Source: Escherichia coli
Lineage (GTDB): Bacteria; Pseudomonadota; Gammaproteobacteria; Enterobacterales; Enterobacteriaceae
Length of the DNA: 64,000 bases
Direction: 5' to 3' (one strand)
Assembly (NCBI RefSeq): GCF_017348835.2
Contig: NZ_CP071375.1
Shown one piece after another: positions 60,501 to 64,000 of the stretch. The position numbers are program-made. Every line of letters begins with the position of its first letter. Position 1 is the stretch's first letter.

Positions 60501-63500
60501 AATTCCGGTTCACGGTTGGTGCCGCCTTTTGAAATGCGTTCTGCGTAGTATTCAACGCGCACCGCGCCATGAGAGTGGATCCCTCTGGCATCGGCGTAAA
60601 CCAATACTTCAGCCACGGTTGCAGCGTGCTCACGTTTTAACCCAGCCTGGCAGAGTTTATTCTCGATTAGCTGGTGGAGTGTTTCCCGACTGATTTTCAT
60701 CTGTCTTCCTTTTTAACGACGGTGTGAAGCATGACTGCAATTAACATACAGGGAAAATATTTGGATTATGTGATCCAGACAGGCAAAAAAATATAGTTAG
60801 AATTTATTTGATAATCTTCGTGCTTTTAACCTGGTTTTTAAAATAACGATGCTTATTAAAAAATAACGCGTAATAGTCTGGCGGTTATTTGAATTCTTTT
60901 GTTAATAATCCCTGTGTGATATTCATCACCTTATTTACTCGTTGTCATCGATACCGTAATCGCCACATTAACACTGCTCGTGCAATTGCCATGGGTGCAA
61001 TTTTTAAGGAGTTGTTATGATCCACGCCTTTATTAAAAAAGGGTGTTTTCAGGATTCGGTCAGTTTAATGATTATTTCACGAAAACTCAGCGAATCAGAA
61101 AATGTTGATGATGTTTCCGTAATGATGGGTACGCCCGCCAATAAAGCGTTATTAGATACCACAGGTTTCTGGCATGACGATTTTAATAACGCCACGCCGA
61201 ACGATATTTGCGTGGCAATTCGTAGCGAAGCGGCGGATGCGGGGATCGCGCAGGCGATTATGCAGCAGCTTGAAGAGGCGCTAAAACAACTGGCGCAGGG
61301 GTCAGGCAGCAGCCAGTCCTTGACGCAGGTGCGTCGCTGGGACAGTGCCTGTCAGAAATTACCCGATGCCAATCTGGCGCTGATTTCAGTGGCTGGCGAG
61401 TATGCGGCGGAGCTGGCGAATCAGGCGCTGGATCGCAACCTCAACGTGATGATGTTCTCCGATAACGTCACGCTGGAAGATGAAATCCAACTTAAAACCC
61501 GCGCGCGGGAAAAAGGCTTGCTGGTGATGGGGCCGGACTGCGGTACGTCGATGATTGCCGGCACGCCGCTGGCTTTTGCTAACGTGATGCCGGAAGGCAA
61601 CATTGGCGTCATTGGCGCTTCCGGTACCGGGATTCAGGAGCTGTGCTCGCAGATTGCGCTGGCAGGGGAGGGAATTACTCACGCGATTGGCCTTGGCGGC
61701 CGCGACCTCAGCCGTGAAGTGGGCGGCATCAGTGCGCTAACAGCGCTGGAAATGCTCAGTGCAGACGAGAAAAGCGAAGTGCTGGCATTTGTTTCAAAAC
61801 CACCTGCCGAAGCTGTGCGTCTGAAAATTGTTAATGCCATGAAAGCAACCGGCAAACCGACGGTGGCGCTGTTTTTAGGTTATACCCCGGCGGTGGCCCG
61901 CGACGAGAATGTCTGGTTTGCCTCCTCGCTGGATGAGGCCGCACGCCTGGCTTGCCTGCTTTCACGCGTTACGGCGCGACGTAACGCGATAACGCCTGCC
62001 AGCAGCGGATTTATTTGCGGTTTGTATACCGGCGGTACGCTGGCTGCCGAAGCGGCGGGATTACTTGCCGGACACCTTGGCGTGGAAGCCGATGATGCCC
62101 ATCATCACGGCATGATGCTGGACGCCGATGGCCACCAGATTATTGACCTTGGCGATGATTTCTACACCGTCGGGCGTCCCCATCCGATGATCGACCCAAC
62201 CTTACGCAACCAGTTAATTGCCGATCTCGGCGCTAAACCGCAAGTGCGCGTATTGCTGCTTGATGTCGTGATTGGCTTCGGTGCGACCGCCGATCCTGCC
62301 GCCTCGCTGGTAAGCGCCTGGCAAAAAGCATGTGCCGCGCGTTCAGACAATCAACCACTGTATGCCATTGCCACGGTGACAGGCACTGAACGTGACCCGC
62401 AATGCCGCTCGCAGCAAATCGCCACGCTGGAAGATGCGGGGATCGCGGTAGTGAGTTCGCTGCCGGAAGCCACCTTGCTGGCGGCGGCACTGATTCGTCC
62501 GCTTTCGCCTGCCACTCAGCAACACACACCGTCATTACTGGAAAACGTCGCCGTGATTAACATCGGATTACGCAGCTTTGCGCTGGAGCTACAAAGCGCC
62601 AGCAAACCGGTTGTGCATTACCAATGGTCGCCAGTCGCCGGCGGCAATAAAAAACTGGCTCGTTTATTAGAACGTTTGCAATAAGGGGTTCCCATGTTTA
62701 CATCAGTGGCGCAAGCCAATGCTGCGGTTATCGAACAAATTCGTCGCGCTCGTCCACACTGGCTGGATGTGCAACCGGCTTCTTCACTTATCAGCGAACT
62801 AAACGAGGGCAAAACACTGCTTCACGCCGGGCCGCCAATGCGCTGGCAGGAGATGACCGGACCCATGAAAGGGGCGTGCGTGGGCGCATGTCTGTTCGAA
62901 GGCTGGGCGAAAGATGAAGCGCAGGCGCTGGCAATACTGGAGCAGGGGGAAGTGAACTTCATTCCTTGTCACCATGTGAATGCCGTCGGTCCAATGGGCG
63001 GTATTACTTCTGCCAGTATGCCGATGCTGGTGGTCGAGAACGTGACCGACGGCAACCGGGCGTACTGCAACCTCAACGAAGGTATCGGCAAAGTGATGCG
63101 TTTTGGCGCTTACGGCGAAGATGTCCTGACTCGCCATCGCTGGATGCGCGATGTGTTAATGCCAGTATTAAGCGCGGCGCTGGGGCGCATGGAGCGCGGT
63201 ATCGATCTCACGGCGATGATGGCGCAGGGCATTACCATGGGTGATGAGTTCCATCAACGCAATATTGCTTCCTCAGCACTGTTAATGCGTGCGCTGGCCC
63301 CACAAATTGCTCGCCTCGATCATGATAAACAGCACATCGCGGAAGTGATGGATTTCCTCAGCGTGACCGATCAGTTCTTCCTCAACCTCGCGATGGCTTA
63401 CTGCAAGGCGGCGATGGATGCTGGCGCGATGATCCGCGCAGGCAGCATCGTCACGGCAATGACCCGCAACGGCAATATGTTCGGGATTCGGGTAAGCGGG

Positions 63501-64000
63501 CTGGGCGAACGCTGGTTTACTGCGCCTGTAAACACTCCGCAAGGTCTGTTTTTCACCGGCTTCTCGCAGGAGCAGGCGAACCCGGGTATGGGCGATAGCG
63601 CGATTACCGAAACCTTTGGTATCGGAGGTGCGGCAATGATCGCAGCGCCTGGCGTAACGCGCTTTGTCGGTGCGGGTGGCATGGAAGCGGCCAGGGCGGT
63701 ATCTGAAGAGATGGCGGAAATTTACCTTGAACGCAATATGCAGTTGCAGATCCCAAGCTGGGATTTTCAGGGCGCGTGCCTGGGACTGGACATTCGTCGC
63801 GTGGTAGAAACCGGCATTACGCCACTCATCAATACCGGTATCGCCCATAAAGAGGCGGGGATCGGGCAGATTGGCGCAGGCACCGTGCGGGCACCGCTGG
63901 CGTGTTTTGAACAGGCGCTGGAAGCACTGGCTGAAAGCATGGGGATTGGTTGAGGAACGCGCAATGACGATCATCCATCCTCTGCTTGCCAGCCGTAGTG

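What the first reader, a model, noticed from the sequence alone, without database searches (positions are those of the whole stretch)
62694..63953. ylbE is a single intact 419-codon ORF
My recollection is that ylbE in K-12 MG1655 is annotated as a frameshifted pseudogene; here the frame is uninterrupted and tightly packed after fdrA, consistent with a functional fdrA-ylbE-ylbF unit next to the allantoin genes.
Basis: partly seen in the sequence, partly recalled or inferred. Interest (0 to 1): 0.3.

Follow-up and report, generated by a model that had tools for sequence, protein, structure and literature searches.

The report
Ordinary intact ylbE (allG) gene
The 419-codon ylbE reading frame is real but ordinary: it is the allG subunit of the oxamic transcarbamylase of anaerobic allantoin breakdown, it is intact in nearly all E. 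coli, and the remembered K-12 'frameshift' was a one-base error in old reference sequences.

Summary
Window 62694..63953 (+) is one uninterrupted ATG..TGA ORF of 419 codons. It starts 9 nt after the fdrA stop and ends 10 nt before the ylbF ATG.

The current MG1655 record (NC_000913.3) annotates ylbE (b4572) as an intact 1260-bp CDS. The window differs from it by 13 substitutions, no indels and one amino acid. The remembered K-12 frameshift is GGGG instead of GGGGG at ORF nt 252-256 (window 62945-62949), together with a silent A at nt 114.

That allele occurs in only 4 of 5,426 complete E. coli genomes: the never-corrected W3110 record and three strains that look like reference-guided K-12 assemblies. 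Resequenced MG1655 and W3110 laboratory stocks carry GGGGG. EcoGene called the U00096.2 discrepancies found by resequencing sequence errors, to be fixed in U00096.3.

The "functional fdrA-ylbE-ylbF unit" is already proven experimentally. allFGH encodes oxamic transcarbamylase (Kim and Kim 2024), and Pfam PF06545 is now named AllG.

One nuance remains. The window, which is effectively pig strain PE164, carries D298G at a residue that is D in 109 of 110 homologs and in PDB 3CLQ. An intact frame therefore does not prove full function. Overall this is already known and of low interest.

The parts
62694..63953 (+). ylbE = allG CDS, 419 codons plus TGA, intact
   Evidence: ORF list and sequence. Pfam PF06545 'AllG', E 7e-97. 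13 nt and 1 aa differences from MG1655 b4572, no indels. PDB 3CLQ homolog, E 3e-111.
62945..62949 (+). GGGGG run (ORF nt 252-256), the site of the historical K-12 'frameshift'. Old records have GGGG here.
   Evidence: Alignment of window, MG1655 v3 and W3110. Deleting one G gives a stop at codon 87 and a 344-codon open tail. Literature: insertion at nt 253 (PMC4404585); +G at 547,831 (PMC5979011 and PMC5460176).
62807..62807 (+). ORF nt 114, G (silent, E38). The old MG1655 and W3110 records have A.
   Evidence: PMC5405962 and PMC5979011 report A547694G in W3110-derived stocks.
63585..63587 (+). Codon 298, GGT (Gly). MG1655 has GAT (Asp). This is the only amino-acid difference from K-12 and lies at a near-invariant family residue.
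   Evidence: G298 vs D; only PE164 of 5426 genomes matches the 65-mer exactly. D in 109/110 homologs. D in 3CLQ; the exact protein is seen on 13 contigs under several accessions.
61017..62684 (+). fdrA = allF CDS (555 aa), first gene of the allFGHK operon
   Evidence: Pfam CoA_binding plus Ligase_CoA and NCBIfam NF004760. PDB 3DMY.
63964..64000 (+). First 37 nt of ylbF = allH, cut off by the end of the window
   Evidence: Sequence. The PE164 and MG1655 annotations place the ylbF start 11 nt after the last base of ylbE.
60701..61016 (.). allD-allF intergenic region holding the allF operon promoter. By coordinate transfer from the MG1655 study, the AllS-binding fragment (-203/-144) is 60814-60873 and the ArcA fragment (-142/-83) is 60875-60934.
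   Evidence: PMC12535856 EMSA. Same 316-bp length as MG1655 with 15 substitutions. Two weak promoter-like sites at 60741-60803, no more than shuffles give.
57598..60700 (-). allE (57598-58383), allC (58394-59629) and allD (59651-60700): the divergent operon for the preceding pathway steps
   Evidence: ORFs. PE164 and MG1655 annotation.

Best explanation
The ORF is the ordinary, intact E. coli gene ylbE, now named allG. It is the second gene of the allFGHK operon (fdrA-ylbE-ylbF-ybcF).

Shown by others, in K-12 MG1655: AllF, AllG and AllH together form oxamic transcarbamylase. [quoted passage not shown] AllK (carbamate kinase) then converts carbamoyl phosphate and ADP to ATP, NH3 and CO2. All three genes are needed, and deleting allG abolishes oxamate formation. 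The operon is activated by AllS and ArcA.

Inferred here: AllF has the CoA-binding and Ligase_CoA domains of succinyl-CoA synthetase but no ATP-grasp module, and no GHAGA-type phosphohistidine loop is visible where the alignment to SCS-alpha ends. It plausibly supplies the phosphate or carbamoyl-phosphate site. AllG has a fold seen only in the uncharacterised 3CLQ. AllG and AllH plausibly complete the oxalurate/oxamate pocket. The division of labour between subunits is not established.

It is not a real difference between K-12 and this strain.
For: Intact ORF.

Current MG1655 annotation is intact and collinear with the window.

The W3110 record is flagged 'frameshifted'. It differs from MG1655 v3 only by GGGG versus GGGGG at nt 252-256 and A versus G at nt 114.

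Only 4 complete-genome records match a GGGG probe exactly: W3110, CIT, LIM and CAR, all hitting at record coordinate 547801 or 547802. The W3110 and CIT records I inspected are flagged frameshifted; LIM and CAR were not inspected. About 5,400 other genomes, including C600, ER1709 and newer MG1655 assemblies, show the one-gap GGGGG pattern. MC4100 and an 'original' MG1655 isolate are annotated with an intact ylbE.

Literature on the frameshift: EcoGene 3.0 reports minor sequence errors in U00096.2, to be corrected in U00096.3. ylbE+ was found in MG1655 stocks and relatives. A laboratory W3110 carries 547694 A>G and 547831 +G relative to its own reference, and W3110-derived JKD7-1 carries 547694 A>G.

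Function: PMC11326118 shows that delta-allG makes no oxamate, that a 46 kDa AllG was expressed from MG1655 DNA, and that purified AllFGH has Km 1.3 mM for carbamoyl phosphate and 36.9 mM for oxamate. Regulation is in PMC12535856. Pfam PF06545 is named AllG. There is no promoter- or terminator-like site between fdrA and ylbE. 12 synonymous against 1 non-synonymous change versus K-12 indicates purifying selection.
Against: No activity was measured for this strain's protein. It carries D298G at a residue that is D in 109/110 homologs and in 3CLQ, so full function is not guaranteed.

ylbF (beyond 37 nt) and ybcF lie outside the window. Their integrity is known only from the near-identical PE164 record.

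The primary paper on the MG1655 stock variation (Freddolino 2012) could not be read. The error status rests on papers citing it, on EcoGene 3.0 and on the present genome counts.

Confidence: 0.95

Rival explanations
1. One reading: ylbE is really a frameshifted pseudogene in the K-12 lineage, and this strain retains the ancestral intact gene, so the intact frame marks a meaningful strain difference.
For: The W3110 RefSeq record and three other K-12-like records annotate ylbE as frameshifted. Older papers treat the MG1655 reference as ylbE-minus. Metabolic engineers call ylbE a pseudogene.
Against: NC_000913.3 has it intact. Independently sequenced K-12 stocks and derivatives, including laboratory W3110, carry GGGGG. 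EcoGene 3.0 describes the U00096.2 discrepancies found by resequencing as sequence errors. MG1655 delta-allG loses oxamate production and MG1655 DNA yields full-length 46 kDa AllG.
Confidence: 0.03
2. The frame is intact but the protein is functionally impaired. The lineage-restricted D298G change in the near-invariant N-P-D-[IM]-G-D-S-A-I-T-E-T segment weakens or abolishes oxamic transcarbamylase, making this a cryptic loss of function that ORF inspection cannot see.
Against: The allele is seen on 13 contigs under several independent accessions, so it persists in a lineage. The rest of the gene and the operon show no decay. No structural or biochemical role is known for D298, and the AF2 model is unreliable from residue 300.
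Confidence: 0.25
3. The ORF is a chance open frame, or it is wrongly delimited, with a different start or two genes.
For: None found.
Against: End-to-end homology to 3CLQ (residues 2-414). Thousands of 418-421 aa homologs. Start and stop identical to the curated MG1655 CDS. A Shine-Dalgarno-like AAGGGG lies upstream of the ATG.
Confidence: 0.01

Closest known systems
E. coli K-12 MG1655 YlbE / AllG (b4572, formerly b0519; UniProt P77129), a subunit of oxamic transcarbamylase AllFGH (EC 2.1.3.5)
   Same: Same locus, same length (419 aa), same start, stop and intergenic junctions. 418/419 residues are identical. Same neighbours: allECD divergent upstream, fdrA before, ylbF after.
   Different: D298G; 12 synonymous substitutions; 15 substitutions in the upstream allD-allF regulatory region.
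The ylbE 'pseudogene' allele of the U00096.2 and AP009048 / NC_007779.1 (W3110) sequence records
   Same: Same gene and position.
   Different: Those records have GGGG, not GGGGG, at nt 252-256 and A, not G, at nt 114. This gives a stop at codon 87. The window and real K-12 stocks have the intact form.
PDB 3CLQ, an uncharacterised DUF1116 protein of Enterococcus faecalis V583
   Different: Different organism, and no function was assigned by the depositors. It has D where the window has G298.
Classical transcarbamylases (ATCase PyrB, OTCase ArgI/ArgF, YgeW)
   Same: Same reaction class: transfer of a carbamoyl group to or from carbamoyl phosphate.

Membership tests
AllG / YlbE family (Pfam PF06545, formerly DUF1116) | Significant match to the family profile above the curated cut-off | tested here: met
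   323.6 bits against a cut-off of 27, E 7e-97, profile positions 1-215 of 215.
AllG / YlbE family (Pfam PF06545, formerly DUF1116) | Full-length collinearity with the experimentally characterised E. coli K-12 AllG | tested here: met
   1260 nt against 1260 nt, no indels, 1 aa difference.
AllG / YlbE family (Pfam PF06545, formerly DUF1116) | Retention of family-invariant residues | tested here: inconclusive
   All columns with >=95% consensus are retained except D298, which is G here. The consequence is unknown.
allFGHK operon (oxamic transcarbamylase plus carbamate kinase) | Gene order fdrA-ylbE-ylbF-ybcF, tightly spaced, divergent from allECD | tested here: met
   In the window: allE, allC and allD on the - strand; fdrA; a 9-nt gap; ylbE; a 10-nt gap; the ylbF start. 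ylbF and ybcF are intact in the PE164 record, which matches the window exactly over the 1.4-kb query and with one mismatch over window 1-50000.
allFGHK operon (oxamic transcarbamylase plus carbamate kinase) | Oxalurate + Pi <-> oxamate + carbamoyl phosphate activity that requires AllG | not testable with these tools
   Shown for MG1655 proteins in PMC11326118. Not measured for this allele.
K-12 record 'frameshifted ylbE' allele | GGGG at ORF nt 252-255 and A at nt 114, with a premature stop at codon 87 | tested here: not met
   The window has GGGGG and G114.
Classical transcarbamylase superfamily (OTCase/ATCase fold) | OTCase_N / OTCase_C domains or the corresponding fold | tested here: not met
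Succinyl-CoA-synthetase-like proteins (applies to the partner FdrA/AllF, not to YlbE) | CoA_binding and Ligase_CoA domains | tested here: met
   PF02629 E 7.6e-13 and PF00549 E 3.4e-37. SCS-alpha chains hit at E 2.5e-12 and weaker.
Succinyl-CoA-synthetase-like proteins (applies to the partner FdrA/AllF, not to YlbE) | Phosphohistidine loop (GHAGA-type) after the second alpha-subunit domain | tested here: inconclusive
   The alignments to SCS-alpha end at FdrA residue ~290, and the following sequence GYTPAVARDENVWF shows no such motif. No structure-based check was done.

The most novel reading that the evidence does not exclude
The most novel reading the evidence allows is that the frame is intact but the gene is not fully functional. 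D298G, confined to a small (pig-associated?) E. coli lineage, would hit a catalytic or interface residue of AllG and silently disable the oxamate branch of anaerobic allantoin use. That would also point to the N-P-D-x-G-D-S-A-I-T-E-T segment as part of the still-unknown active site of this non-canonical transcarbamylase.
Probability: 0.2. Interest if true: 0.25.

Novelty: already known. Interest (0 to 1): 0.07.

Why it matters
Biologically it matters little. An intact ylbE is the rule in E. coli, and its function as a subunit of oxamic transcarbamylase was published in 2024.

The practical value is a caution about annotation history. A one-base error in old K-12 reference records created a "pseudogene" that still propagates in three ways:
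- **In the W3110 RefSeq record.** It is still flagged frameshifted.
- **In resequencing papers.** Some report the correction as a mutation (PMC5460176).
- **In strain engineering.** ylbE is used as a supposedly neutral pseudogene integration site in W3110 (PMC7677707, PMC12175537). Such insertions probably disrupt the functional allFGHK operon.

Tried and rejected
- The primary papers on the MG1655 stock variation (Freddolino 2012, PMC3256642; Fabich 2011, PMC3125843) are not held. I relied on citing papers and EcoGene 3.0.
- A guessed accession for a second W3110-lineage genome (NZ_CP017979) is not in the collection. Direct evidence for W3110 stocks came from PMC5979011 instead.
- NCBIfam has no model matching YlbE at E <= 0.001.
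- The AF2 model (mean pLDDT 75.5) is unreliable over residues 300-362, just after the D298 site, so it gives no structural reading of D298G.
- The promoter and terminator scan found nothing above shuffle expectation. It served only to show there is no signal between fdrA and ylbE.
- I considered and rejected the idea that D298G is a PE164 assembly error. The exact protein is on 13 contigs under several accessions.

Full report
**1. The observation.** The window holds a single uninterrupted ORF at 62694..63953 on the + strand: ATG to TGA, 419 codons. fdrA (61017..62684, 555 aa) ends 9 nt upstream. The spacer TAAGGGGTTCCCATG contains a Shine-Dalgarno-like AAGGGG. The ylbF ATG lies 10 nt downstream at 63964, and the window ends at 64000, so only 37 nt of ylbF are visible. 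No promoter-like or terminator-like site lies between fdrA and ylbE. The ORF is a real gene:
- It matches Pfam PF06545 at 323.6 bits, E 7e-97.
- It aligns over residues 2-414 to PDB 3CLQ, E 3e-111.
- It has thousands of homologs of 418-421 aa.
- It differs from K-12 by 12 synonymous codon changes and 1 non-synonymous change.

The current MG1655 record NC_000913.3 annotates ylbE (b4572, YP_009029994.1) as an intact CDS of 1260 bp at 548357..549616, between fdrA and ylbF. The window ORF and the MG1655 CDS have the same length, no indels, 13 substitutions and one amino-acid difference, G298 versus D. The junctions with fdrA and ylbF are identical.

**3. Where the recollection comes from.** The W3110 record NC_007779.1 still flags ylbE as a pseudogene, 'frameshifted', 1259 bp. 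A three-way alignment shows it differs from MG1655 v3 at exactly two places. It has A instead of G at ORF nt 114. It has GGGG instead of GGGGG at nt 252-256, which is window 62945-62949. Deleting one G from the run in silico gives a stop at codon 87 and leaves a 344-codon open tail ending at the normal C-terminus.

[quoted passage not shown] PMC4759930 reports a SNP plus a one-base insertion that removes a stop, the 'ylbE+' allele, also present in ATCC47076. PMC3045373 says the change in NCM3722 'restored an intact ancestral gene'. PMC5460176 lists 547,694 A>G and 547,831 +G, read there as mutations that 'make ORF'.
[quoted passage not shown] It does not name ylbE (PMC3531124).
- **W3110 stocks show the same corrections.** A laboratory W3110 stock differs from its own reference by the same 547694 A>G and 547831 A>AG (PMC5979011). 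W3110-derived JKD7-1 also carries 547694 A>G (PMC5405962).

**4. Population check.** A 65-nt probe from W3110 centred on the GGGG run matches exactly in only four listed records among 5,426 complete E. coli genomes (five records fall in the >=99% identity band). The four are W3110 itself and strains CIT, LIM and CAR. These three hit at record coordinate 547801 or 547802. CIT's genome is 4,639,673 bp, which from memory is within a few bases of U00096.2, and its ylbE is flagged frameshifted. Together this suggests reference-guided assemblies. About 5,400 other genomes, including C600, ER1709 and newer MG1655 assemblies, show the one-gap GGGGG pattern. MC4100 and an 'original' MG1655 isolate are annotated with intact ylbE, WP_000495367.1. 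Truly broken alleles exist but are sporadic: GD33 is annotated frameshifted, with an alignment about 17 bp shorter than the query, and AR_0085 has a deletion fusing fdrA and ylbE remnants. An intact ylbE is therefore the norm, and the window is unremarkable in this respect.

**5. What the gene is and how it works.** Kim and Kim (AEM 2024, PMC11326118) showed in MG1655 that fdrA, ylbE and ylbF, renamed allF, allG and allH, together encode oxamic transcarbamylase: oxalurate + Pi <-> oxamate + carbamoyl phosphate. Their evidence:
- Each single deletion, including delta-allG, abolishes or nearly abolishes oxamate production.
- Only allFGH together restores it fully.
- AllG is produced as a 46 kDa protein.
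- Purified AllFGH has Km 1.3 mM for carbamoyl phosphate and 36.9 mM for oxamate.

[quoted passage not shown] The operon is activated by AllS and ArcA, which bind at -203/-144 and -142/-83 relative to the allF ATG (PMC12535856). Pfam now names PF06545 'Oxamate carbamoyltransferase subunit AllG', and some RefSeq records already name ylbF 'oxamate carbamoyltransferase subunit AllH family protein'.

**6. Subunit-level mechanism (inference only).** FdrA carries the CoA_binding and Ligase_CoA domains of succinyl-CoA synthetase. Its alignment to SCS-alpha stops at about residue 290, where SCS-alpha carries its phosphohistidine loop, and no GHAGA-type motif is visible there. It has no ATP-grasp part. 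It is plausible that AllF provides the phosphate or carbamoyl-phosphate site, and that AllG and AllH complete the oxalurate/oxamate pocket.

**7. A nuance: intact does not prove functional.** The single amino-acid difference from K-12 is D298G (codon GGT at 63585-63587).
- Among 110 full-length homologs of 71-98% identity, this column is D in 109. The one exception is garbled across the whole segment.
- It is the only position where the window departs from a >=95% consensus.
- 3CLQ also has D there.
- Only PE164 matches the surrounding 65-mer exactly among the 5,426 complete genomes.
- The exact protein occurs on 13 contigs under several accessions, so it is a real, lineage-restricted allele.

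Whether it affects activity cannot be decided here.

**8. Origin of the window.** Window 1-50000 is the reverse complement of E. coli PE164 (pig, Nanjing; NZ_CP114128.1) positions 3641492-3691491, with one mismatch at 24469, inside an IS4 copy. The last 1.4 kb are 100% identical to PE164.

**9. Verdict.** The gene, its function and the history of the 'frameshift' are all already known, so interest is low.

Noticed in passing
window 63585-63587 (ylbE codon 298): D298G: Gly where K-12, 109/110 homologs and PDB 3CLQ have Asp. Among complete genomes the allele matches exactly only in PE164, but it is present on 13 contigs in public data. It may impair AllG despite the intact frame.
   Followed up: partly
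window 60701-61016 (allD-allF intergenic region): 15 substitutions in 316 bp against MG1655 (4.7%, compared with 1.0% in ylbE). 11 of them fall in the stretch corresponding to the AllS-binding EMSA fragment (-203/-144 = 60814-60873) and 3 in the ArcA fragment. Regulation of the allF operon may differ from K-12.
   Followed up: partly
NC_007779.1 (W3110) 547581-548839; NZ_CP026026-28 (strains CAR, LIM, CIT): The W3110 reference record still carries the two old errors in ylbE (A114 and GGGG) and is annotated 'frameshifted', although a laboratory W3110 stock has the corrected bases (PMC5979011). Three 'complete genomes' match the same GGGG probe at record coordinate 547801/547802, which suggests reference-guided assembly. 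W3110 strain engineers use ylbE as a 'pseudogene' integration site (PMC7677707, PMC12175537).
   Followed up: yes
window 6920-29136 (- strand): According to the PE164 annotation, a giant BapA-related adhesin gene (siiEA, about 20.8 kb in total) is split by an IS4 insertion (transposase 24403-25731). It is flanked by a TolC-family gene (5462-6817) and type I secretion genes (29140-32474). The window's only mismatch to PE164 in 50 kb (24469, C vs A) lies inside this IS4.
   Followed up: no
window 61017-62684 (fdrA): fdrA differs from K-12 by 9 non-synonymous and 23 synonymous codons, a clearly higher replacement load than ylbE (1 vs 12).
   Followed up: no
protein collection: The 90%-identity cluster that holds this YlbE also holds 555-aa FdrA proteins. 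Some hits are YlbE-YlbF fusion-like products (P0002 548 aa and P0024 485 aa, with PF06545 plus PF11392). These are probably gene-calling or assembly artefacts that chain separate families into one cluster.
   Followed up: no
L004 (strain GD33) and L005 (strain AR_0085): Genuinely disrupted ylbE alleles do occur sporadically. GD33's ylbE is annotated frameshifted, and its alignment is about 17 bp shorter than the query. AR_0085 has an internal deletion joining a truncated fdrA to the 3' end of ylbE.
   Followed up: partly
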